From a virus (taxonomy: Duplodnaviria > Heunggongvirae > Uroviricota > Caudoviricetes), in the IMG/VR virus record IMGVR_UViG_2778261154_000006, positions 1 through 28,179 of that record: a DNA stretch of 28,179 bases; one strand, 5' to 3'. Position 1 is the stretch's first letter, and each line of letters starts with the position of its first letter. Position numbers and translations under genes: made by a program. Positions 1 through 28,163 of the stretch are shown piece after piece. Below the pieces are notes generated by a model. The model saw nothing but the letters and a program-made list of their open reading frames with translations. It was not told where the DNA came from and ran no database searches.

Positions 1-72
1 AATCGGTGGAGCTGCATGACAAGGTCATCGGGCATTATCTGAACATAAAACACTATCAGTAAGTTGGAGTCA

Positions 73-321
73 TTACCACGGTAACGCACCAAATGTTTTA
101 CCTTTTATTCGAGCCAAACCTGTAAGCGCATATAACTTATTATCGTCAAAATTCATCACATAAGGATTACCATCAAGACACTGTAATTGAACCTCATCAG
201 TATTAAATGGCCATACCCCATTGAAACTCTCACGTTCAATAGTTTTAAAAGGCATTGCGACGGCGGAAAAAGAAAACATAGATAAAAAAGTAACTAATAG
301 TTGAACCTTTTTTACTTTCAT
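73..321 (-). CDS. small secreted/periplasmic protein of unknown function (predicted N-terminal signal peptide)
   Basis: 82-aa ORF. N-terminus MKVKKVQLLVTFLSMFSFSAVA has a basic n-region, hydrophobic core and an AxA-type cleavage site. Low GC relative to the phage body. Starts 30 bp downstream of the preceding minus-strand gene. Confidence 0.45.
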   Translation of the reverse strand: MKVKKVQLLVTFLSMFSFSAVAMPFKTIERESFNGVWPFNTDEVQLQCLDGNPYVMNFDDNKLYALTGLARIKGKTFGALPW

Positions 322-350
322 ATCATTACCTCAATTTAGCTCAAGTAAGA

Positions 351-998
351 TTACAAATTAAAAAACACCCTAGAAATGGCGCCGCCTACCAAAACCCCTA
401 CGCAGATAAAGAATATTATTTCTTTTGGATAAAGTCGGAGTAATTCTGAAGCACGAAGTCGGACTTCTGGTAAGGTCGAACTCTCTGTGTGGCTTGATGC
501 CGATTGTTGCTCTAACCACGACAATGCAGACTGTAACTGAGAACGAGTAAGATCGTTTAAACGTCCTGTACCGAAATTGATATGGCAATACCGCAGAAGT
601 TTTTGTCGAAGTCCACAGTCTTCACTGTTACGTAGTAATAAACTTACAAGAGTCTTACAGGCATCATGATCTTTACATCGCTCAAGCATTGCATGCAGAA
701 AACTCTCCGCTGTTTTATATTGATTTACTGTCATATCATCAATACCAGCTACACCAATCTCCGCATGTACTTTTTGCCAAATAATAAACGCTTCAGTATT
801 GCTAGCTTCTGCAATAGCAGCAACCAAGCTATTTAGCTCCTTACGCTGAGCCTTAAGCAAAGGGCGATCATCATCATTATTCGAAGGGATTGCGATATTG
901 ACGGTATGAGAACCATCATATCGCTCTATCTGAATATTCTTTTCGTGAAAATCACGCCCAGCAACGCGATTGTTTGAACCGTTTGAGTTGACGGCCAT
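351..998 (-). CDS. tail-anchored membrane protein of unknown function; N-terminus carries the peptide motif found at the C-termini of the two adjacent HTH proteins
   Basis: 215-aa ORF. C-terminal hydrophobic segment IIFFICVGVLVGGAISRVFF. GGAGGT Shine-Dalgarno 3 nt upstream of the ATG. N-terminal residues 5-19 (NGSNNRVAGRDFHEK) match the C-terminal tails of the ORFs at 1014-1418 and 1445-1870. Confidence 0.5.
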   Translation of the reverse strand: MAVNSNGSNNRVAGRDFHEKNIQIERYDGSHTVNIAIPSNNDDDRPLLKAQRKELNSLVAAIAEASNTEAFIIWQKVHAEIGVAGIDDMTVNQYKTAESFLHAMLERCKDHDACKTLVSLLLRNSEDCGLRQKLLRYCHINFGTGRLNDLTRSQLQSALSWLEQQSASSHTESSTLPEVRLRASELLRLYPKEIIFFICVGVLVGGAISRVFFNL

Positions 999-1013
999 GT
1001 CACCTCCCTACTA

Positions 1014-1418
1014 TCACCTACCCTTAGTTTCGTTATAGTCACAACCAGCGATACGGTTATTACCGCCAGAAATATTTAACTCACGTCCTGATGGCTGAGT
1101 TTCCTTTTCACTGATCGCACCTTTTAAAGCCCCGATCACCGCGTTTTTCACATCTAACGAAGCTGCTCGAAAGCGAGTAATCAACTCCTGCTCATCATCG
1201 TTATAAGTTTCAGATGAGTGAATTCCCAACACAACATACTGAACATCAAGGCCAAAACGAGACAGCGCTGCCAAATACGCAGCATCAGGAAAACTATCTC
1301 CTTTCTCATATCTAAGCTGAGTTAGCTTTTTGACTCCGCCAATGTCGCTCATAGCAACTTGACTAAGTCCCAACCTTTCCCTTTCCTCACGCAACCGCTG
1401 ACCAATATCACTTTTCAT
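1014..1418 (-). CDS. XRE-family helix-turn-helix transcriptional regulator (phage repressor-like), paralog of 1445-1870
   Basis: N-terminal region IGQRLREERERLGLSQVAMSDIGGVKKLTQLRYEKGDSFPDAAYLAALSRFGLDVQYVVLG fits the XRE/Cro-CI HTH pattern. C-terminal tail NISGGNNRIAGCDYNETKGR is shared with the neighbours. Confidence 0.7.
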   Translation of the reverse strand: MKSDIGQRLREERERLGLSQVAMSDIGGVKKLTQLRYEKGDSFPDAAYLAALSRFGLDVQYVVLGIHSSETYNDDEQELITRFRAASLDVKNAVIGALKGAISEKETQPSGRELNISGGNNRIAGCDYNETKGR

Positions 1419-1444
1419 ACAAAAACCTTGACAGGTATCTTTCG

Positions 1445-1870
1445 CTAACCCTTCGTTTCATTATAGTCACGACCTGCAATACGATGGCCTTTACCTGATA
1501 CGTTTACCGTATTTGATGCAGAACTACCCGCAGTCAGGGCAGCAAGAGCTGCAGCCTTTACGGCAAGCGGAGCATTTCTAAAATGCTTGATAATTTCCAT
1601 CTCATCACGGTTTAGAGCACCCCCGACAGCCTCACCAGTTAGTATGTATTGGACGTTAGCCCCATTAAGCGCAAATGAGAGCAAAACATCTCCCCCAGGT
1701 ACCATAGTTCCCCGTTCGTACTTCCCCCAAGATTCTCGCGATACGCCGCAAAGAGCAGCAGCATCAGCCTGTTTGAGAGATAAACGCTTTCTCTCAGCCT
1801 TCAGTCTCGCACCACAAAGAGATGAAAAATTCACTTTTATACCTTGACTAAAGAGATCTATTGATCTCAT
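1445..1870 (-). CDS. XRE-family helix-turn-helix regulator, probable immunity repressor (CI/C-like); the true start may be the GTG at 1834
   Basis: HTH region LKAERKRLSLKQADAAALCGVSRESWGKYERGTMVPGGDVLLSFALNGANVQYILTG. It is the first gene of the leftward operon, divergent from the rightward early genes. C-terminal tail VSGKGHRIAGRDYNETKG. An in-frame GTG at 1834 has an AAGG 7-8 nt upstream. Confidence 0.7.
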   Translation of the reverse strand: MRSIDLFSQGIKVNFSSLCGARLKAERKRLSLKQADAAALCGVSRESWGKYERGTMVPGGDVLLSFALNGANVQYILTGEAVGGALNRDEMEIIKHFRNAPLAVKAAALAALTAGSSASNTVNVSGKGHRIAGRDYNETKG

Positions 1871-1873
1871 AAT
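1844..1873 (+). promoter_or_regulatory. predicted sigma70-type early rightward promoter (TTGACT-N18-CATAAT) in the repressor/early-gene switch region
   Basis: TTGACT at 1844-1849 and CATAAT at 1868-1873, just upstream of the first rightward gene at 1911. The palindrome TTAATTAA (1873-1880) overlaps the -10 region and is a possible operator. Pattern-based only. Confidence 0.35.
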
Positions 1874-1910
1874 TAATTAACAAACCATTAGATGATCACA
1901 ATATACCACT

Positions 1911-2117
1911 ATGAAACAAGTTCTTCACGATACCAGATCACGCATTCCGCGTAACACCGCCGCAGGTCCAAGACTGGCACTTCGGCTGTCCATCGAGGAG
2001 CGAGCCGTCATTGATGAAATGGCAGCTAAAGAACAACGCTCATCCTCTAACATGGCGCGCATGATCTTCCTTCGCGGCCTAGAGCTAACCCAGAAAGAAC
2101 AAAACAAATCTTCCTGA
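1911..2117 (+). CDS. small ribbon-helix-helix-like regulator (Cro/CII-position gene of the early operon)
   Basis: 68-aa ORF, first gene divergent from the repressor. Segment RLALRLSIEERAVIDEMAAKEQRSSSNMARMIFLRGL resembles the RHH (Arc/MetJ/CopG) pattern. Confidence 0.45.
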   Translation: MKQVLHDTRSRIPRNTAAGPRLALRLSIEERAVIDEMAAKEQRSSSNMARMIFLRGLELTQKEQNKSS

Positions 2118-2133
2118 TCAGGAGGCTAGTGGG

Positions 2134-2337
2134 ATGTCAGGTATAACCATCAATATCAATGTGAATGCCCCCTATGTATCCCTGCAGAAATATGCAGAGA
2201 TAACAGGTATCCCTCTTAATACATGCAAAAAGATGTTGGCTGACGGTCGAATTATTATCCGCCCCAAACGTGCCAAAATGGAAAAGCCTGAAGTAAACCT
2301 TGTGGCGATGTTAAAAGACGCTTTGGCTAACAGCTAA
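2134..2337 (+). CDS. small HTH protein, possibly Cox/Apl-like excisionase or regulator
   Basis: 67-aa ORF with GGAGG SD upstream. Segment SLQKYAEITGIPLNTCKKMLADGRI resembles the HTH of P2 Cox (recalled from memory). Confidence 0.4.
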   Translation: MSGITININVNAPYVSLQKYAEITGIPLNTCKKMLADGRIIIRPKRAKMEKPEVNLVAMLKDALANS

Positions 2338-2358
2338 AACAATGAACAGAGCATCATC

Positions 2359-2709
2359 ATGAAAAAAAACGCTAATAATCCATACTCCAAATTTCGTAAT
2401 GGCGTAGAACGCCATGTACACCACGTTGCTACCAGTGCATCACGTAGCAACATCCGCTACAGCCTGAGCGATACACACGCAACGCCGGATGGCTACCCCG
2501 TAAAACAAATCGGCGAGCACGCCTGGCTGATTGAGAAAGCTGGAATCGTAGTCCACAAATACCCACGCAATCCGTTTACCGGAAACCGCATTTTTGCTCT
2601 GAGCTGCGGCGACAATCAGTTCGGGCAGGATTTCACGTTGTACGAAGCGCTACGCACAGTTGATCGCCTTCTTTACGGAGAAAATTTTATTAAACAGGCT
2701 GAGTTATAA
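2359..2709 (+). CDS. hypothetical early protein
   Basis: 116-aa ORF, co-directional and tightly spaced in the early operon. No recognisable motif. Confidence 0.4.
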   Translation: MKKNANNPYSKFRNGVERHVHHVATSASRSNIRYSLSDTHATPDGYPVKQIGEHAWLIEKAGIVVHKYPRNPFTGNRIFALSCGDNQFGQDFTLYEALRTVDRLLYGENFIKQAEL

Positions 2710-2750
2710 CAGCGGGTTTATCACCGGTTATTTTTAACGAGGACTCCGTT

Positions 2751-2993
2751 ATGAGAAAACACACAGCAGAACAGGTAAACGAATTTCTGCAGGGATATTA
2801 CTTCGATAACGAAATTAATCCCCGCGCCAGAAAAACACACTTCGAAGTAATGAAGTGCGGAATATTCAGCGTCCGCAACACCCTGTTTTGTTCAAAAGAT
2901 ACGGGAGCCAGCGAGGACCTTAAAGAACTTAACCGGATGGCGAAACAATTAATGGATGGCATGGTTCCCGAACCCGCAATAATTACGGAGTAA
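2751..2993 (+). CDS. hypothetical early protein
   Basis: 80-aa ORF with GAGGA SD-like sequence upstream. Confidence 0.4.
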   Translation: MRKHTAEQVNEFLQGYYFDNEINPRARKTHFEVMKCGIFSVRNTLFCSKDTGASEDLKELNRMAKQLMDGMVPEPAIITE

Positions 2994-2998
2994 TCACG

Positions 2999-3184
2999 AT
3001 GAATTTCAGTTATTCATTCAGTGTACCGGAGTCGTTATTTGTTATCACACTGATTGCAGCCGCAATGTTTTTTGCCATCTGCATACTGACACTTATTGAT
3101 ACATGGCGGGAAATACGCGACAGACGTCGCCAGAAAAAAAACGGGATGCATACAACGCATTCATTCAGCACAAAGAAGACGTAG
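2999..3184 (+). CDS. small single-pass membrane protein
   Basis: 61-aa ORF with GGAG SD 9 nt upstream. Hydrophobic stretch LFVITLIAAAMFFAICILTLI followed by a basic tail RDRRRQKK. Confidence 0.4.
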   Translation: MNFSYSFSVPESLFVITLIAAAMFFAICILTLIDTWREIRDRRRQKKNGMHTTHSFSTKKT

Positions 3185-4476: not shown

Positions 4477-4712
4477 AACCCGCCATTATCTGCATTCTGT
4501 GCGAGAGCACTGTCACCGGCGGCCATTACCGCATCAGGGAACGCCACATCAACCCTGACCGTTCGCTGCTGGACAACATCACCGGCCCGAATGATGAACG
4601 CGTGATCTGCCTGAACGACGGCTCGCAGTTACGCGTGCGCAATATCCGGCGCGAAATCACGCTCGAACCCACCCCATTCACACGCGGGAAAAAACCGGAG
4701 AGTGACGCATGA
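4473..4712 (+). CDS. hypothetical protein
   Basis: 79-aa ORF, translationally coupled between neighbours (overlapping start and stop). Confidence 0.35.
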   Translation: MKPAIICILCESTVTGGHYRIRERHINPDRSLLDNITGPNDERVICLNDGSQLRVRNIRREITLEPTPFTRGKKPESDA

Positions 4713-5668
4713 AAGGTATTCTGAACCAGCGCTCACCGCTCAAATGGGCGGGCGGCAAATTCAGTATCATGCCGCAGCTGCGCGAATATTTACCCAAAGC
4801 CGCCTGCCTGATCGAACCCTTCGTGGGCGGCGGCTCGGTCTTCATGAACACGGATTATGACTATTACGTATTGTGTGACAGCAACCCCGCGCTGATTAAT
4901 TTCTACCAGCAACTGACGACCAACACCACGGAATTAATGGATCGTGCATGGTCACTCTTTAAGGATGGCGGCACACCGGAAGCCTACAAACGCCATCGCG
5001 GAGCATTTAACACCATCGCGCTGGCCACCGACAGATTACGCGGAGAATCCCTGGAATGGGCAGCGCTGTTTCTGTACCTGAACCGCCATTGCTTTAACGG
5101 CCTGTACCGCACCAACCAAAAAGGCGAATTCAATGTGCCATTCGGCAAACACCGCATGCCTTATTTCCCCTGCCAGGAAATGCGCCTGTTTGCTGATAAA
5201 GCCAACGAGACCCGGACCCGCTTTATTCACGCGGATTTCCGTACAGCCTTCACAATGCCGGCTGAGATCCACCGTTTTTCTTCGGTGCACGGCGATATCG
5301 CCATTTACTGCGATCCGCCCTACCTGCCACCGAACGGTAAAGAGGCGTTCACTCACTACAACGGCCGGGCATTTACCCGCAAAGACCACCGTGACCTTGC
5401 GGCGCTCATGATGAACGCCTGGCAACGTTACGGTATCCACCCGGTGGTCTCCAACAGTGACACCTCCGAAACCCGGCAGATCTATTCCTCGTTTGAGCTG
5501 CACACCCTGAGCGTTCGCCGCGCTGTGGCTGCCAGCAGCAGTGCACGCCAGCAGGCAAAAGAGGTGATTGGTGTTTATCCGCCAGCCCGTGAGGTCCGGA
5601 TCCGGGATGTCAATGCGGGCTGGCTGTCTCACATTCCCGCTCCACACCCCACCACGGAGATCATGTAA
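4709..5668 (+). CDS. dam: DNA N6-adenine methyltransferase, Dam family (GATC-type)
   Basis: LKWAGGK near the N-terminus, EPFVGGGSVF SAM-binding motif, DPPY catalytic motif (YCDPPYLPP), and FLYLNRHCFNGLYRTNQKGEFNVPFG closely resembling E. coli Dam. Confidence 0.9.
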   Translation: MKGILNQRSPLKWAGGKFSIMPQLREYLPKAACLIEPFVGGGSVFMNTDYDYYVLCDSNPALINFYQQLTTNTTELMDRAWSLFKDGGTPEAYKRHRGAFNTIALATDRLRGESLEWAALFLYLNRHCFNGLYRTNQKGEFNVPFGKHRMPYFPCQEMRLFADKANETRTRFIHADFRTAFTMPAEIHRFSSVHGDIAIYCDPPYLPPNGKEAFTHYNGRAFTRKDHRDLAALMMNAWQRYGIHPVVSNSDTSETRQIYSSFELHTLSVRRAVAASSSARQQAKEVIGVYPPAREVRIRDVNAGWLSHIPAPHPTTEIM

Positions 5669-10065: not shown

Positions 10066-10493
10066 CGCGATTTCACTGCACCATGCAGCGTCAGCAGTTC
10101 GACGCCGTTATGCGCCAGCGCACGCCAGCCATGACACTGAGAGGCGTAGCCACAAGACCACAGCCCGGGGACGAACTGGAAATCACGGTGGCCAGCCCCG
10201 ATCGCACCACCACAACCACCATCACCGACATACTTAACAGGCGACCGGGCAGTGAATATCAGAGCTGGACCATTGCCGTTCGCCCACGCCGTTCGCCGGA
10301 AGAACCGGAGCCGCTCACCCCGGCCGGAAAAATCATGCAGAAGTACCACGAAGAGCAGGCCCGCAAACACAATGTCGCGCTGGCCAGAACACTGACTGCC
10401 GTCAATCGCAAGGCCGCACTGGCGCGAAGGGTCTTTTCATCGCAGCACCCTTCATTCGCCAGACCGGCACAACACAGGAGAGATCCACAATGA
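10062..10493 (+). CDS. hypothetical protein
   Basis: 143-aa ORF whose start overlaps the A stop. No confident motif. Confidence 0.4.
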   Translation: MTRFHCTMQRQQFDAVMRQRTPAMTLRGVATRPQPGDELEITVASPDRTTTTTITDILNRRPGSEYQSWTIAVRPRRSPEEPEPLTPAGKIMQKYHEEQARKHNVALARTLTAVNRKAALARRVFSSQHPSFARPAQHRRDPQ

Positions 10494-10738
10494 GAGAGCA
10501 ATTACCAGACACCGTGCCAGTACAGGAAATCAAAGAAAATATCAGGCAACAACTTCACGGATTTTATATTACTTATGATTTGTGGCTGAAAAACGGAGCA
10601 AATCCAGACGGAATATTTTCGCGAAACTGTGGTTTATGCGCCAGCCTCTGGGATTATCTCGAATTAACGGGTGCTGATAAAGAAGCCGCACTGGAGCTAT
10701 TGCACATTGATTTCAGAAATGCCGGGCGAACCGCATAG
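10490..10738 (+). CDS. hypothetical small protein in a lower-GC patch (accessory gene at the P2 tin/old-equivalent position)
   Basis: 82-aa ORF with ATGA start/stop overlap. Visibly AT-richer than flanking phage DNA. Confidence 0.4.
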   Translation: MREQLPDTVPVQEIKENIRQQLHGFYITYDLWLKNGANPDGIFSRNCGLCASLWDYLELTGADKEAALELLHIDFRNAGRTA

Positions 10739-10793
10739 CGGTGAGTCTGTCAGGGCGAGGAAGCGGAAGATCCACCGCCCCACAGAATGGCAC

Positions 10794-11069
10794 TTACGCG
10801 CCATCACTGAGCAGAATATCCAGTGCCATTTGCCTTTCGTCTGGTTTAAGGCGCTGGAGCAATGCTTTAACGACACCATCAGTTTGCAGGTCACTGGGTG
10901 AAATCACGCGAAGATCGGAAAGATTGAGCGAAAAACGCATATTACAGTCAGAATTAGTGCAGGTGCAATAAACTACCGCCAGCGTTTTTGCGTCATCCTG
11001 CCATGCAGTTTTGCGTATAGCCGCCCGGCAGTGACACGCCGGACATTCAATTTTCATCACACCCGCCAT
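10794..11069 (-). CDS. Ogr/Delta-family zinc-finger late-gene transcriptional activator (putative)
   Basis: 91-aa ORF. ECPACHC...YCTCTNSDCNMRF gives a C-x2-C...C-x4-C arrangement with spacing like P2 Ogr (CPLCQH...CQNVNCSATF, recalled from memory). Confidence 0.55.
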   Translation of the reverse strand: MAGVMKIECPACHCRAAIRKTAWQDDAKTLAVVYCTCTNSDCNMRFSLNLSDLRVISPSDLQTDGVVKALLQRLKPDERQMALDILLSDGA

Positions 11070-11119
11070 ACCCCCCCCACAATCTGACCGGTTGCAGGGG
11101 TAATATAGTCTTTTTCGGG

Positions 11120-12175
11120 TTATTTTTCATCAGCCAGCGCAGACACCACATTTTCCACATCTTCCAGCGTAAAATTAAGGTGTAACGACGGGGGGATTTC
11201 GGGATCGCTGTTCACAGCCTGCATGAATTTACGGCAGACAGGTGTCACTTCATCCCGTCCATAGGTTGTCCTTGCCTTATCGGGATCGCCAAGTCCGCTC
11301 GCATTTTGCGGGATAATACCGGCAAGACCAGCCGGAAAGCGGTGCGCCGTAAGAACATCCTGAGCGCTGATATTCTTCACATTTGAAAACTCATCTTTTT
11401 GCTGAATATCCCCAACCGGAATAATTTTAATCCCGTCCGGTTGCCCTTTTGGGATACTGATAAACATGTTACGGAAATTCCCAAGCCCGTTACCGCTCTC
11501 TATTTTTTTACGTATAGCTTCTTCAGCCTCAACAGACATATTCGGGTCGGACGCGTACATGATGAACCCCATATGCGCACCGTTGTGATAGTAGCGACGT
11601 CTGAAAATGGTCGCCTCACTGTTCAGTAACGCTGAATGAATACCACCGATATAATCAGGCAGTCCATAAATCTGCTGTCGCGGATCATGCATACGTAAAA
11701 ACACAACATCAGACGGCGAATAGACCAGCGGCTCGCCCTCCTGTAACACGATAAAATCAAGTTGCTTGCTGCGACGCAGATACAAAGACGGTAATGGTGC
11801 CAGCGCCACCACCCGTCCCCACCCGTTACGGACCTTCAGAATGGCCACATCACCAAACAGCAGGTAGTCAAAGACAGCCATTTCCATCTGATCGGTCGTC
11901 AGTCCACCCCCCTGGTAGCTGGCACACACCATATTTTTGCGTGCATACAGTACGCCGCCATGCTGGGCGTTAAGGTTCGGCAACTGCGCGAGCGCAAGTC
12001 TGTCTATTGGTAGTGTCCAGTAGTTGTAGCTACCGTTATACCAGACGTTGATGTATTCCGTGCCGGTAGTCAGTATCGGTTCCGGCTCCCCAAAAGTGAT
12101 AATATTGCCGCGTCCGGGAGTAAAATTTTCTGTCTGTGCCCGTTTACGCAGGCGTGCGCTTTTACGTTTACTCAT
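11120..12175 (-). CDS. Q: portal protein, P2 gpQ family
   Basis: Leftward gene directly downstream of the terminase with ATGA overlap at 12172-12175. About 351 aa from this start, close to P2 Q. The track ORF extends to 12196, but the ATG at 12175 is translationally coupled to the P stop. Confidence 0.8.
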   Translation of the reverse strand: MSKRKSARLRKRAQTENFTPGRGNIITFGEPEPILTTGTEYINVWYNGSYNYWTLPIDRLALAQLPNLNAQHGGVLYARKNMVCASYQGGGLTTDQMEMAVFDYLLFGDVAILKVRNGWGRVVALAPLPSLYLRRSKQLDFIVLQEGEPLVYSPSDVVFLRMHDPRQQIYGLPDYIGGIHSALLNSEATIFRRRYYHNGAHMGFIMYASDPNMSVEAEEAIRKKIESGNGLGNFRNMFISIPKGQPDGIKIIPVGDIQQKDEFSNVKNISAQDVLTAHRFPAGLAGIIPQNASGLGDPDKARTTYGRDEVTPVCRKFMQAVNSDPEIPPSLHLNFTLEDVENVVSALADEK

Positions 12176-26356: not shown

Positions 26357-28163
26357 GCGCCTGAAAGCGCAGGAAGCCGCAGGCGGCAACCGTATCATCA
26401 TTGATCAGTTTGTATTTGCAAATATCCCGGATCTGAACATTGCCGACACGCCGTCTGAAAACGAACCATTGCCCCCCGATGCACAGATAGTTCACCGCCA
26501 GAACGTTGATCGCAACGGAATGGTAAATGAGAACACCGTCGCCTACTCCGTTACCCTGCCGGAGTCCACGGGTGATTTTACTTTTAACTGGCTGGGTCTG
26601 GTAAGCAGCACCACAAATACACTTTGTATGGTGGTATATCTTCACCCTCAGAAAAAAATAAAAACCGCAGACGGCAAACAGGGTAATACCCTGATTTATT
26701 CTGAAATTATGGAATACGCCGGAGCCAGCGCCGCAACCGGCATCACCACGCCAGTAAGCACCTGGCAGATTGATTTTACGGCACGGCTTCACGGCATGGA
26801 CGAGGCCACCCGCAAAGCGGCGCTGGATATCTACGGGCCTGGCCTGTTCTTTAATAACGCCTTTAAACTCACCGCTCAGGCTACCGGGCAGGCGACCTTC
26901 GCGCCGGGTATTGCCTATCTGCGCGGATTACGTGTGGAGCTGGATGAACAAGGCACACTGACATACGCCACCGGAATTTCACAAACTGTTTATGTTGACG
27001 CGGCATTAACCGGTACCCTGACCGGGGAAAATAAAGCCATATTCAGCCTGACGAGTCAGAAAACAGCCGACTATACCGACAGTTCAGGATTTGCCCATTA
27101 TGTCGAACCCATCGCCACAATATCAGACAGTGGCGAGATCACCGATATACGAAAAACCCGCAAACCATTAAATGACCGCCTTGATGGCGAATACCTGACC
27201 CGTAACGGGAACCTGAAAGAAATTGCTGACAAAGGTGAACAGGCCCAGTCTGATGCCAGAAAGCATATGGGCCTCGGCGACAGCGCCACCCTTAATGTTG
27301 GCACCGCGCAGGACACTGTAGCCGCAGGTGACGACATCCGCATCACAGGAGCGCTGCAAAAAAATCAGAACGGAGCAGATATTCCCGATAAACCGCTGTT
27401 TATCCAGAACGTTGGTTTACAGGAAACGGTAAACAAGGCTGATAACGCTGTCCAAAAGACAGGCGATACCTTGTCCGGTGGACTTACTTTTGAAAACGAC
27501 TCAACCCTTGCCTGGATTCGAAATACTGACTGGGCAAAGATTGGTTTTAAAAATAATGCCGACAGCGATACTGATTCATACATGTGGTTTGAAACAGGTG
27601 ACAACGGCAATGAGTATTTCAAATGGAGACACCGCCTCGCTGGCGGCCGGGTTAAAGACCTGATGAATCTCAAATGGGATACACTAAATATTCTGGTTAA
27701 TGCCGTCATTAATGGTTGTCTTGGAATTGGTACGACGAATGCGTTAGGTGGAAGTTCAATCGTTTTAGGAGATAACGATACCGGGTTTAAACAAAATGGC
27801 GATGGTCTGCTTGATGTTTATGCGAATGGACAGCGTGTATTTCGTTTCCAGAATGGCAGTATCCAGAGTAATAAAGCTGTAAACGTTACAGGACGGGTAA
27901 CACCGTCAGACTACGGAAACTTTGATGCCCGTTACCAGCAGCGAAATGGTGGCGTGCAGGATGTGCGGTATGGTTATGAAATGTATTACAACCCTGGCAG
28001 CAACACCGTTTCATGGACGTTTCGCTCACCTTCGGGACACGGGCTGTCAGGGATATCGATATCGGATACCGGCCGTAACTCAGCGGATAACGTCAACGGT
28101 GTGTATTACCGACCGCTGCAAAAACTGATTAATGGCACCTGGTATAACGTAGCGAGTATTTAA
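26325..28163 (+). CDS. H: tail fibre protein with P2 gpH-like C-terminal half
   Basis: 612-aa ORF. Residues about 365-612 (LQETVNKADNAVQKTGDTLSGGLTFENDSTLAWIRNTDWAKIGFKNNADSDTDSYMWFETGDNGNEYFKWR ... YRPLQKLINGTWYNVASI) closely match the C-terminal region of P2 gpH as recalled. The N-terminal about 360 aa is different. Confidence 0.85.
   Translation: MTQSAITSAFERLKAQEAAGGNRIIIDQFVFANIPDLNIADTPSENEPLPPDAQIVHRQNVDRNGMVNENTVAYSVTLPESTGDFTFNWLGLVSSTTNTLCMVVYLHPQKKIKTADGKQGNTLIYSEIMEYAGASAATGITTPVSTWQIDFTARLHGMDEATRKAALDIYGPGLFFNNAFKLTAQATGQATFAPGIAYLRGLRVELDEQGTLTYATGISQTVYVDAALTGTLTGENKAIFSLTSQKTADYTDSSGFAHYVEPIATISDSGEITDIRKTRKPLNDRLDGEYLTRNGNLKEIADKGEQAQSDARKHMGLGDSATLNVGTAQDTVAAGDDIRITGALQKNQNGADIPDKPLFIQNVGLQETVNKADNAVQKTGDTLSGGLTFENDSTLAWIRNTDWAKIGFKNNADSDTDSYMWFETGDNGNEYFKWRHRLAGGRVKDLMNLKWDTLNILVNAVINGCLGIGTTNALGGSSIVLGDNDTGFKQNGDGLLDVYANGQRVFRFQNGSIQSNKAVNVTGRVTPSDYGNFDARYQQRNGGVQDVRYGYEMYYNPGSNTVSWTFRSPSGHGLSGISISDTGRNSADNVNGVYYRPLQKLINGTWYNVASI

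What the first reader, a model, noticed from the sequence alone, without database searches (positions are those of the whole stretch)
73..1870. Repressor-linked low-GC operon of two paralogous HTH regulators, a tail-anchored membrane protein and a secreted protein: candidate superinfection-exclusion or defence moron
Four co-directional minus-strand genes form one apparent operon starting at the immunity switch: HTH (1445-1870), HTH (1014-1418), a 215-aa protein with a single C-terminal transmembrane anchor (351-998), and an 82-aa signal-peptide protein (73-321). The segment is visibly AT-richer than the phage body. No integrase sits where P2-like phages normally carry int next to the repressor. 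The architecture parallels known repressor-linked exclusion operons such as lambda cI-rexA-rexB and P22 sieB, but I recognise neither downstream protein as a known family.
Basis: partly seen in the sequence, partly recalled or inferred. Interest (0 to 1): 0.75.

Follow-up and report, generated by a model that had tools for sequence, protein, structure and literature searches.

The report
Phage repressor with membrane-anchored tail mimic
This is the lysogeny-control end of a P2-like E. coli prophage, cut by an IS1 element, in which the immunity repressor is always followed by a membrane-anchored Flk-like protein that copies the repressor's own tail, a pairing that seems undescribed and probably links the phage's on/off switch to the cell membrane.

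Summary
The four minus-strand ORFs are real, but they are not one cargo operon. Window 1-77 is an IS1 end. It truncates a 115-aa DUF2511/YebY-like secreted protein to the 82-aa ORF and hides the integrase, which follows this gene in intact relatives. The two HTH genes are repressor alleles of two immunity types, stacked by recombination. Block 1443-1860 is VL40-type, and the breakpoint splits an O26-type palindrome.

The 215-aa protein is a tail-anchored homologue of the host flagellar regulator Flk (Pfam Flk_N). In about 90 P2-like loci, and in seven further lineages of Mu-like prophages, it directly follows an XRE repressor. Only the slot between it and int varies: DUF2511, BRCT/WYL proteins, others, or nothing.

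The repressor's C-terminal tail and the partner's N-terminus share a roughly 17-aa motif (NRxAGRD[YF]xE). The motif co-varies between lineages and is kept at the protein level. AlphaFold2 gives it low confidence in both monomers.

My best reading is a mimicry-type partner, as in SinI/SinR or AimX/AimC, that couples the repressor to the inner membrane. This is inferred, not shown. Only the DUF2511 gene is a moron, and here it is broken. No known defence family matched.

The parts
1..77 (.). Terminal fragment of IS1 (inverted-repeat end). The window begins inside the element.
   Evidence: 96-100% identity to IS1 ends in many phage and E. coli records. The same IS1 junction occurs in E. coli OkiPb01684, followed there by the rest of the DUF2511 gene and by int.
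73..321 (-). IS1-truncated DUF2511/YebY-family gene for a secreted protein. It gives 82 aa: 81 native residues, then one junction codon and a stop codon from IS1. The intact gene is 115 aa. It is cargo in a variable slot.
   Evidence: sequence; the intact 115-aa gene is annotated DUF2511; the same gene split by IS1. PF10709 at E 0.008, below the cut-off; the full-length relative matches YebY 7N0J at E 0.003, including the C-terminal Cys that is lost here; the slot is variable.
351..998 (-). Flk_N-family tail-anchored protein, 215 aa. It is the constant partner of the repressor.
   Evidence: phrog_5825 at E 1e-102. NCBIfam Flk at E 1.7e-15, below the equivalog cut-off. BLASTP against E. coli K-12 Flk gives 28% identity over 131 aa, E 2e-10. 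PF27202 Flk_N is recorded on all close homologues. In the AF2 model the helical core at 45-170 has pLDDT about 90.
942..992 (-). N-terminal motif VNSNGSNNRVAGRDFHE (residues 3-19), a copy of the repressor tail.
   Evidence: pLDDT is below 50 in the monomer model.
357..428 (-). C-terminal transmembrane anchor, residues 191-214.
   Evidence: Hydrophobic C-terminus conserved in the family. AF2 helix at 191-214. Host Flk is an experimentally established tail-anchored protein (PMC6794478).
1014..1418 (-). HTH2, an O26-type XRE-family repressor allele of 134 aa. It is now distal to the switch.
   Evidence: HTH profiles; phrog_8 at E 1e-13. It is 98.8% identical in DNA to the single repressor of the O26:H11 prophage. 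AF2: HTH at 1-65, helices at 74-106, disordered tail.
1029..1079 (-). HTH2 C-terminal tail motif LNISGGNNRIAGCDYNE. The Cys (codon 1041-1043) replaces an Arg found in every other intact motif of this class.
   Evidence: This exact protein is found on 111 E. coli contigs.
1443..1860 (-). 418-bp block absent from O26-type relatives. It carries the leader and coding sequence of HTH1.
   Evidence: BLASTN break at 1442/1861 against L001 and L003. Window 1439-2667 matches the VL40-type prophage at 91.9%.
1445..1870 (-). HTH1, a VL40-type XRE repressor allele next to the switch. The longest ORF is 141 aa. The probable start is GTG 1834, giving 129 aa.
   Evidence: HTH_31 at 35 bits and HTH_3 at 25.7 bits, both above their cut-offs. 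In VL40 it is the only repressor. The 129-aa form is in NCBI.
1457..1507 (-). HTH1 C-terminal tail motif VNVSGKGHRIAGRDYNE.
1844..1873 (+). Promoter-like site for the rightward early operon (TTGACT, 18 nt, CATAAT). A type-specific palindrome, GAGATC-N4-GATCTC (1853-1868), lies in its spacer and is a candidate operator.
   Evidence: The homologous position in the O26-type phage has TTGACA, GGTATC-N6-GATACC, CAAAAT. In the window that palindrome is cut by the 1442/1443 breakpoint. The operator function is inferred.
1911..2117 (+). Arc-like ribbon-helix-helix protein, first gene of the divergent early operon.
   Evidence: phrog_3431 at E 8e-28.
2134..2337 (+). Cox-like excisionase/repressor.
   Evidence: phrog_575 at E 1e-27.

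Best explanation
The segment is the lysogeny arm of a P2-like (Peduoviridae, Xuanwuvirus-like) E. coli prophage of the kind that integrates next to yecA. A leftward operon starts at the immunity switch and normally reads repressor, Flk_N partner, one variable cargo gene, integrase.

Three events shaped this copy:
1. An IS1 landed in the cargo gene, a DUF2511/YebY-like periplasmic protein. This leaves an 82-aa stump and separates int from the operon.
2. Recombination between two heteroimmune relatives stacked a VL40-type repressor (HTH1, with its own promoter/operator region) in front of the O26-type repressor (HTH2). The breakpoint destroyed the palindrome in the O26-type early promoter. HTH1 is therefore the repressor that holds this prophage. 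HTH2 is an extra allele that can only act in trans, extending immunity against O26-type phages.
3. HTH2's tail then acquired an Arg-to-Cys change at a position otherwise conserved in this motif class.

The 215-aa protein is not cargo. It is a cytoplasm-facing, tail-anchored Flk_N protein that belongs to the repressor module. Its first roughly 20 residues copy the disordered C-terminal tail of the repressor. I propose that the two proteins bind each other, or compete for one site, through this shared motif. The partner would then hold a fraction of the repressor at the inner membrane or change its oligomeric state. This is the logic by which SinI antagonises SinR and AimX antagonises AimC.

What is shown: the gene order, the homologies, the IS1 cut, the recombination, the motif sharing and its co-variation. 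What is inferred: the binding itself, its direction (antagonist, stabiliser or sensor), and the operator assignment.
For: Anatomy:
- IS1 end.
- Intact relatives with int, DUF2511, membrane protein, HTH, switch.
- An identical IS1 junction with int beyond it.
- The mosaic breakpoints.
- A type-specific palindrome in the spacer of the promoter-like site, with half of the O26-type palindrome deleted.

Flk_N identity.

Constant pairing:
- In all 80 or so loci where the upstream gene could be read, an HTH with the tail motif sits immediately upstream of the Flk_N gene. The slot before int holds DUF2511, BRCT, or other fillings, or nothing.
- The same pair sits at the c-repressor position of Mu-like prophages in seven further lineages.
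- A tail-less HTH homologue has no Flk_N neighbour.

Motif co-variation:
- Mean cognate score is 42.2 against 23.9 for non-cognate pairs.
- Only 7 of 40,320 permutations reach the cognate assignment.
- An unusual 'QAD/NAD' variant occurs in both partners of L106.
- Identical residues mostly use different codons, so selection is on the protein rather than recent gene conversion.

Structure:
- Both motifs have pLDDT below 50 in monomer models, as expected for segments that fold on binding.

Precedent for mimicry antirepressors: 10.1101/2025.11.23.689978.
Against: No physical interaction was tested. A complex prediction could not be run. Co-variation rests on eight related lineages, and old local duplication followed by parallel drift could contribute. 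A constitutive antagonist co-transcribed with its repressor is not obviously useful unless some signal controls it, and no signal is identified. The six-base palindromes are short: ten inverted repeats of this size occur in 521 nt. The promoter scan found fewer sites than shuffles give. The tail has not been shown to be an oligomerisation element.
Confidence: 0.5

Rival explanations
1. Repressor-linked exclusion or abortive-infection module, essentially the first reader's idea. The Flk_N membrane protein, alone or with the slot gene, blocks superinfecting phages at the inner membrane. Alternatively it acts as a membrane effector that the repressor tail keeps silent and that is released when the repressor is lost. 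That would resemble a toxin-antitoxin pair or lambda RexAB.
For: It sits in the lysogenic operon next to the repressor, the classic place for such genes. It has a tail anchor. The HTH has a disordered tail, like many XRE antitoxins. The neighbouring slot carries BRCT/WYL proteins with weak similarity to the candidate defence protein PDC-S48. The segment has low GC.
Against: There was no PADLOC hit for the 215-aa or 82-aa proteins. The Flk_N gene is constant rather than variable, unlike typical defence cargo. Almost all of the protein faces the cytoplasm, unlike known injection blockers. In antitoxin systems the tail binds the toxin's body, not a copy of itself.
Confidence: 0.2
2. Degron decoy. 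The shared motif is recognised by a host protease or adaptor such as FtsH, ClpXP or Lon. The membrane protein competes with the repressor for it and so sets repressor half-life. This would resemble lambda CIII protecting CII from FtsH, or the tail-controlled ClpXP turnover of Mu repressor. Both comparisons come from my own knowledge, not from a tool result.
For: The same short disordered motif occurs at a C-terminus and at an N-terminus. It co-varies. The partner is membrane-located, where FtsH acts. The module occurs in Mu-like phages.
Against: A host factor conserved across Enterobacterales, Gilliamella and Pseudomonas would be expected to hold the motif constant. In fact the motif diverges by lineage while staying matched within each pair. 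That pattern fits a partner-partner contact better.
Confidence: 0.12
3. Flk mimic. The phage protein acts on the flagellar type III export gate as host Flk does, holding it in early-substrate mode. It would change motility or flagellin display of the lysogen, or resistance to flagellum-dependent phages.
For: Homology to residues 20-146 of Flk and the same tail-anchored topology. Flk inhibits the late-secretion switch and was tested for interaction with the cytoplasmic domain of FlhA (PMC13344023).
Against: The score is far below the Flk equivalog cut-off, 57 against 353 bits. The protein is common in prophages of Klebsiella and Raoultella, genera classically described as non-motile and without flagella (established knowledge). 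It is strictly tied to a repressor, and it carries an N-terminal motif that Flk lacks.
Confidence: 0.08

Closest known systems
SinI/SinR of Bacillus subtilis and AimX/AimC of arbitrium phages (mimicry antirepressors)
   Same: An XRE-type HTH repressor is paired with a neighbouring gene whose product carries a copy of a C-terminal element of the repressor. In the known cases that copy forms a heterocomplex and blocks repressor oligomerisation (10.1101/2025.11.23.689978).
   Different: Here the shared element is a roughly 17-aa disordered tail motif, not a helical oligomerisation domain. The partner is a 190-230-aa tail-anchored membrane protein with an Flk_N domain, not a small soluble protein. 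It is co-transcribed downstream of the repressor. No sequence homology to SinI or AimX was found, and the interaction is untested.
Host Flk (RflH, 'Fluke'), flagellar secretion-switch inhibitor
   Same: Homologous Flk_N helical region (28% identity over 131 aa). [quoted passage not shown]
   Different: It is 215 aa against 331, with one Flk_N unit instead of repeated units. It is prophage-borne and repressor-linked. It has an N-terminal repressor-tail motif absent from Flk. It occurs in genera without flagella. It scores far below the Flk equivalog cut-off.
Amyloid signalling pairs (BASS motifs; E. coli Bab/Agp)
   Same: A short motif is shared by the C-terminus of one protein and the N-terminus of the protein encoded by the adjacent gene. 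One partner is membrane-directed, and the setting is a prophage (10.1101/2024.11.07.622273; 10.1101/2020.01.06.895854).
   Different: There is no NLR, TPR-PIN or Bell/Babybell domain. The C-terminal motif sits on a DNA-binding repressor and the N-terminal one on the membrane protein. The motif is shorter and rich in Arg and Asp. Amyloid formation is untested.
Repressor-linked lysogenic-conversion genes (lambda rexAB, P22 sieB, lactococcal sie2009 between repressor and int)
   Same: Genes carried in or beside the lysogenic operon between repressor and integrase. This is the position of the variable slot that holds DUF2511 here. The comparison is from my own knowledge.
   Different: No homology to any of them: PADLOC gave no hit. 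The slot gene is broken in this window. The Flk_N gene behaves as a core gene, not as cargo.
YebY (PDB 7N0J), the DUF2511 periplasmic protein of the yobA-yebZ-yebY operon
   Same: The full-length 115-aa phage protein aligns with YebY over the whole domain, including both Cys residues. It has a signal peptide.
   Different: It is prophage cargo rather than part of a chromosomal copper-linked operon. The similarity is weak (E 0.003). The window copy lacks the last 34 residues.

Membership tests
Flk_N domain family (Pfam PF27202) | Match to the Flk_N profile | tested here: met
   PF27202 is precomputed on all close homologues, including the 99%-identical P0001, and is named Flk_N on the partners in distant loci. 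The model is absent from the local Pfam copy, so the window protein itself was not scored. NCBIfam Flk matched residues 39-165 at E 1.7e-15.
Flk (NCBIfam NF007987 equivalog) | Score above the equivalog cut-off, about 330 aa with repeated units, and the chromosomal pdxB-flk locus | tested here: not met
   57.2 bits against a cut-off of 353. 215 aa against 331. The gene is in a prophage, not at pdxB-flk-yfcJ.
Flk (function) | Inhibits the flagellar late-substrate secretion switch | not testable with these tools
   Needs FlgM-secretion and motility assays (PMC13344023).
Tail-anchored inner-membrane proteins | A single hydrophobic segment at the extreme C-terminus and no signal peptide | tested here: met
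   Residues 191-214 are hydrophobic and helical in the model. Membrane insertion itself was not tested.
XRE-family phage immunity repressors | HTH_3/HTH_31 domain | tested here: met
   HTH1 scores 35.1 and 25.7 bits, above the cut-offs. HTH2 is below the Pfam cut-offs (23.2 and 19 bits) but matches phrog_8 at E 1e-13, matches the P22 C2 repressor in PDB at E 0.01, and shows five HTH helices in the AF2 model.
XRE-family phage immunity repressors | [quoted passage not shown] | tested here: inconclusive
   The position is met in P2-like and Mu-like loci. Operator binding is untested. Type-specific palindromes in the promoter spacer are only suggestive.
186 CI-type repressors of P2-like phages | Match to the Phage_CI_repr type profile | tested here: not met
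   No such Pfam family appeared among hits at E up to 1.
DUF2511 / YebY family | Profile match over the whole domain with both conserved Cys residues | tested here: not met
   The window ORF scores 17 bits against a cut-off of 21 and lacks the C-terminal 34 residues, including the second Cys. The intact relative is a member.
Known anti-phage defence or exclusion systems (PADLOC set, including Rex-like) | Sequence match to a component of a described system | tested here: not met
   No hit at E up to 1 for the 215-aa and 82-aa proteins. The HTH domains gave only generic hits.
Mimicry antirepressor pairs (SinI/SinR type) | The partner carries a copy of a repressor segment | tested here: met
   10 of 17 residues are identical between the O26-type HTH2 tail (Arg at the position that is Cys in the window) and the Flk_N N-terminus. 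The window's own HTH2 tail shares 9 of 17, as does HTH1's. The match holds in all eight lineages.
Mimicry antirepressor pairs (SinI/SinR type) | The heterocomplex blocks repressor oligomerisation and DNA binding | not testable with these tools
This needs two-hybrid, SEC-MALS or EMSA experiments.
Amyloid signalling motif pairs (BASS) | Motif shared by the C-terminus and N-terminus of adjacent gene products | tested here: met
Amyloid signalling motif pairs (BASS) | Association with an NLR-like sensor and a Bell/HeLo-type executioner; fibril formation | tested here: not met
   The domains present are HTH and Flk_N. Fibril formation is not testable here.
IS1 | Terminal sequence identity | tested here: met
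   77 nt at 96-100% identity to annotated IS1 copies.

The most novel reading that the evidence does not exclude
The shared tail motif is a self-complementary, possibly templating (amyloid-like or beta-zipper) signalling element. Through it, an immunity repressor and a tail-anchored membrane protein would report on each other's state. Loss or titration of the repressor would switch on a membrane effector, or a membrane event would capture the repressor and trigger induction. This would be a new, membrane-coupled layer of the lysis-lysogeny switch, shared by P2-like and Mu-like prophages of Proteobacteria.
Probability: 0.1. Interest if true: 0.85.

Novelty: new variant of a known kind. Interest (0 to 1): 0.6.

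Why it matters
P2-like phages of this group have no known induction route. How their repressors are controlled is open. The same is true of many Mu-like prophages. A conserved membrane-anchored protein that copies the repressor's tail gives a concrete, testable handle on that control. It would also extend the 'antagonist mimics its repressor' principle to a membrane tether.

The finding gives a first functional context for the Flk_N fold outside flagella. That may help explain why flk is kept in non-motile enterobacteria.

In practical terms, the 'membrane protein' next to these repressors should not be scored as defence cargo. The true cargo slot lies between it and int. Stacked repressor alleles can widen a lysogen's immunity.

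Tried and rejected
- **Complex prediction.** No multimer tool is available.
- **Motif search in other architectures.** A 51-aa artificial two-motif query returned only 11 fragments of the same family. Whether the motif occurs on other effector types therefore remains unknown.
- **Junction search.** An exact search for the HTH1/HTH2 junction 34-mer found nothing in IMG/VR or in JGI metagenomes. The exact-protein look-up then showed the arrangement in roughly 90-110 E. coli assemblies.
- **Defence families.** PADLOC gave no hit for the two downstream proteins.
- **PDB sequence search.** A search with the Flk_N profile gave only noise.
- **Viral structure search.** BFVD Foldseek gave only weak hits (E above 0.001) to ORF6C, RecT-C and Bro-C type proteins.
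- **Weak Pfam hits.** The hits of the 215-aa protein to zf-P11 and ELYS are below threshold and were ignored.
- **Terminator.** The one terminator-like site, inside the 3' end of the Flk_N gene, is no more than shuffles give.
- **Failed look-up.** P0373, a second tail-less HTH control, was not on record. The statement 'no tail, no Flk_N' therefore rests on one lineage.
- **Gene conversion.** Rejected as the source of motif identity because identical residues mostly use different codons.
- **Literature.** Searches for PF27202, Flk-like proteins, or Flk in prophages found nothing relevant.
Full report
**What is in the sequence**

The four minus-strand ORFs exist as described: 73-321 (82 aa), 351-998 (215 aa), 1014-1418 (134 aa, HTH2) and 1445-1870 (141 aa, HTH1). 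On the other strand the switch is followed by an Arc-like gene (1911-2117), a Cox-like gene (2134-2337) and a DUF4761 gene. The rest of the window encodes GpA replication protein, an Ogr-like zinc finger, portal, terminase and tail fibre, so the element is P2-like. GC rises from 0.38 at the left end to 0.47 at 2000, stays near 0.46 to 3500, and is 0.54-0.60 beyond. The AT-rich zone is therefore real but covers the early genes too.

**The left edge is an insertion sequence**

Window 1-77 is 96-100% identical to IS1 ends. The closest relatives are prophages integrated next to yecA in E. coli O26:H11 11368 and many other strains, and Escherichia phage 520873 (Peduoviridae, Xuanwuvirus). Their order is int, DUF2511 protein (115 aa), membrane protein (216 aa), HTH (134 aa), switch. 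The 82-aa ORF is this DUF2511 gene cut after residue 81. The last codon spans the junction and the stop codon is IS1 sequence. Strain OkiPb01684 has the identical junction, with IS1, the remaining 111 nt of the gene and int just beyond.

The full-length protein aligns with the solved periplasmic protein YebY over its whole length, including a C-terminal Cys that the window copy has lost. So the statement 'no integrase' is an artefact, and the secreted protein is most likely non-functional here.

**The two HTH genes**

HTH1 and HTH2 are 39% identical. Relative to the O26-type prophage, window 1443-1860 is a clean 418-bp insertion holding HTH1. Window 78-1442 is 98.8% O26-type, and window 1439-2667 is 91.9% identical to the prophage of strain VL40, where the HTH1 type is the only repressor. 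The window is thus a recombinant of two immunity types.

A promoter-like site for the rightward early operon (TTGACT, 18 nt, CATAAT, 1844-1873) carries the palindrome GAGATC-N4-GATCTC in its spacer. VL40 has the same palindrome. The O26 type has TTGACA, GGTATC-N6-GATACC at the same place (sequences). The recombination breakpoint at 1442/1443 cuts the O26-type palindrome in half.

I infer three things from this. These palindromes are the type-specific operators. HTH1 holds this prophage. HTH2 can act only in trans, giving a second immunity. These palindromes are short, so this remains an inference.

HTH1 probably starts at GTG 1834, because the palindrome and promoter lie in the first 12 codons of the long ORF. 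The 129-aa form is annotated in NCBI. The arrangement is not a singleton. The exact HTH1, HTH2 and 215-aa proteins occur on 93, 111 and 110 E. coli contigs, with consecutive accession numbers. A Salmonella prophage stacks three HTH alleles in the same way.

**The 215-aa protein**

It falls in phrog_5825, a family of unknown function. All its homologues carry Pfam PF27202, named Flk_N. The NCBIfam model of the flagellar regulator Flk matches residues 39-165 at E 1.7e-15. That is 57 bits, far below the equivalog cut-off of 353. BLASTP against E. coli K-12 Flk gives 28% identity over 131 residues.

A profile search of 1.84 billion representatives found only 135 clusters. These split into short phage-type proteins and long Flk-type proteins.

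**A constant pair and a variable slot**

I collected 87 loci encoding relatives of the 215-aa protein, plus annotated E. coli examples. In every locus where the upstream gene could be read, an HTH gene of 127-147 aa ends a few bases before the Flk_N gene.

Downstream, before int, the content varies. It can be DUF2511, a BRCT protein of about 292 aa, a 244-aa protein, proteins of about 300 and 392 aa with BRCT and WYL domains, a 194-aa secreted protein, sets of small proteins, or nothing. The 215-aa and 82-aa proteins therefore do not travel as a pair. The first belongs to the repressor module. The second is one of at least eight alternative cargoes.

**The shared motif**

The window holds three copies:
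- HTH1 ends in VNVSGKGHRIAGRDYNETKG.
- HTH2 ends in LNISGGNNRIAGCDYNETKGR.
- The 215-aa protein starts MAVNSNGSNNRVAGRDFHE.

The motif is conserved in the tails of the HTH family and at the N-termini of the Flk_N family. Distant members of both families carry variant forms.

Look-ups of such HTH proteins showed the same two-gene unit at the c-repressor position of Mu-like transposable prophages, divergent from small regulator, DUF3102 and transposase genes. These came from Brenneria, Gilliamella, Pseudomonas aeruginosa and metagenomes. In each, the tail and the partner's N-terminus carry the same variant:

| Repressor tail | Partner N-terminus |
|---|---|
| GQFAGNKIVN | GQFSSRDIIN |
| GGVAARDIIN | GGVAGRDIVN |
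| QIAGGNIY | QIAGRDIY |
| QQFNGPVGTVTSGDVVN | QQFHDRVHQVAAGDIKN |
| GDVGQVVNAD | GPVGQAIQAD |

Over eight lineages the mean cognate score is 42.2 against 23.9 for non-cognate pairs. Only 7 of 40,320 permutations reach the cognate total. Identical residues mostly use different codons, for example 2 of 9 and 4 of 12 the same. The match is therefore kept by selection on the proteins, not by recent gene conversion.

An HTH homologue without the tail has no Flk_N neighbour, though this is one lineage only. The HTH2 model has the tail (107-134) at pLDDT below 50.

In both stacked arrays the HTH next to the Flk_N gene has a damaged tail. In the window it is the Arg-to-Cys change, at a position that is Arg in every other intact motif of this class I read. 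In Salmonella L104 the motif core is lost.

**Most likely mechanism**

A motif that is disordered in both monomers, sits at the end of one protein and the start of the next, and changes in step in both is best explained in one of two ways. Either the two segments contact each other, or they compete for one site. The nearest known logic is the antagonist that copies part of its repressor, SinI with SinR and AimX with AimC.

I therefore propose that the Flk_N protein binds the repressor through the shared motif and holds part of it at the inner membrane, or alters its oligomeric state. It would be a regulatory accessory of the switch. I put this at about 0.4-0.5. The anatomy (IS1 cut, recombinant repressors, constant pair, variable slot) I put near 0.9.

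**Rivals**

- An exclusion or abortive-infection role fits the position but has no specific support. There was no PADLOC hit, the gene is constant, and the protein faces the cytoplasm.
- A degron-decoy role fits a short disordered motif. It does not fit well with a motif that diverges by lineage yet stays matched within each pair.
- A true Flk-like action on the flagellar export gate is unlikely. The protein is common in prophages of Klebsiella and Raoultella, which are classically non-flagellate. It also carries a motif that Flk lacks.
- The geometry also recalls amyloid signalling pairs such as Bab/Agp. I keep that as the most novel reading not excluded.

**Novelty**

I found no paper on phage Flk-like proteins or on this pairing. 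The domain itself is already in Pfam. I class the finding as a new variant of a known kind: mimicry control of a repressor, here with a membrane-anchored partner.

Noticed in passing
window 1041-1043 (codon 126 of HTH2): HTH2 has Cys where every other intact NRxAGRD-type motif I read has Arg (IAGCDY against IAGRDY). This exact protein is on 111 E. coli contigs, so the change is fixed in a lineage. In Salmonella locus L104 the HTH nearest the Flk_N gene has also lost its motif core. The tail of a displaced repressor may be released from selection, or selected against.
   Followed up: partly
L104:767-4982 (Salmonella enterica contig ABCTBU010000011.1): Three tandem HTH repressor alleles (141, 124 and 121 aa) precede a 227-aa Flk_N protein, a 440-aa BRCT-containing protein and int. 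Stacking of immunity repressors in front of the Flk_N gene is recurrent.
   Followed up: partly
L059:4627-5511, L093:4692-6847, L104:2871-4193 and others: The slot between the Flk_N gene and int often holds BRCT or BRCT+WYL proteins with weak similarity to the candidate defence protein PDC-S48. They could be defence genes or DNA-damage sensors tied to the switch.
   Followed up: partly
L096:3911-4723, L108:2929-3600: In two Mu-like lineages the partner keeps the N-terminal tail copy. Its transmembrane segment is followed by an extra C-terminal part with a conserved 'AGQPYS(V/L)G(A/S)V' stretch, so it is not strictly tail-anchored. The motif persists while the body changes.
   Followed up: no
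proteins P0161, P0218, P0237-P0251: Some members of the Flk_N superfamily carry the N-terminal motif, once in two copies, but end in a basic soluble C-terminus with no hydrophobic anchor. Their gene context was not examined.
   Followed up: no
window 1-77 and beyond the left edge: The same IS1 insertion in the DUF2511 gene is shared by a single-repressor prophage (OkiPb01684) and by this double-repressor one. It separates int from the lysogenic operon, so the prophage may be impaired in excision.
   Followed up: partly
window 4709-5668: This prophage carries a D12-class adenine methyltransferase where the O26:H11 relative carries ParM-like partition genes. The early region is mosaic as well.
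   Followed up: no
window 10490-11120 and 27500-28000: There are two further dips in GC, to 0.47 and 0.44. The first lies between the replication genes and the Ogr-like and portal genes and holds an 82-aa ORF. The second lies in the tail-fibre gene's 3' part. Either could be a further exchange or cargo point.
   Followed up: no
L002 (Escherichia phage 520873, NC_049344.1) 2459-3065: In the only deposited phage genome with this module, the Flk_N gene is matched in three pieces and is not annotated, and int is split in two. The record looks like a decayed prophage rather than a viable phage.
   Followed up: no
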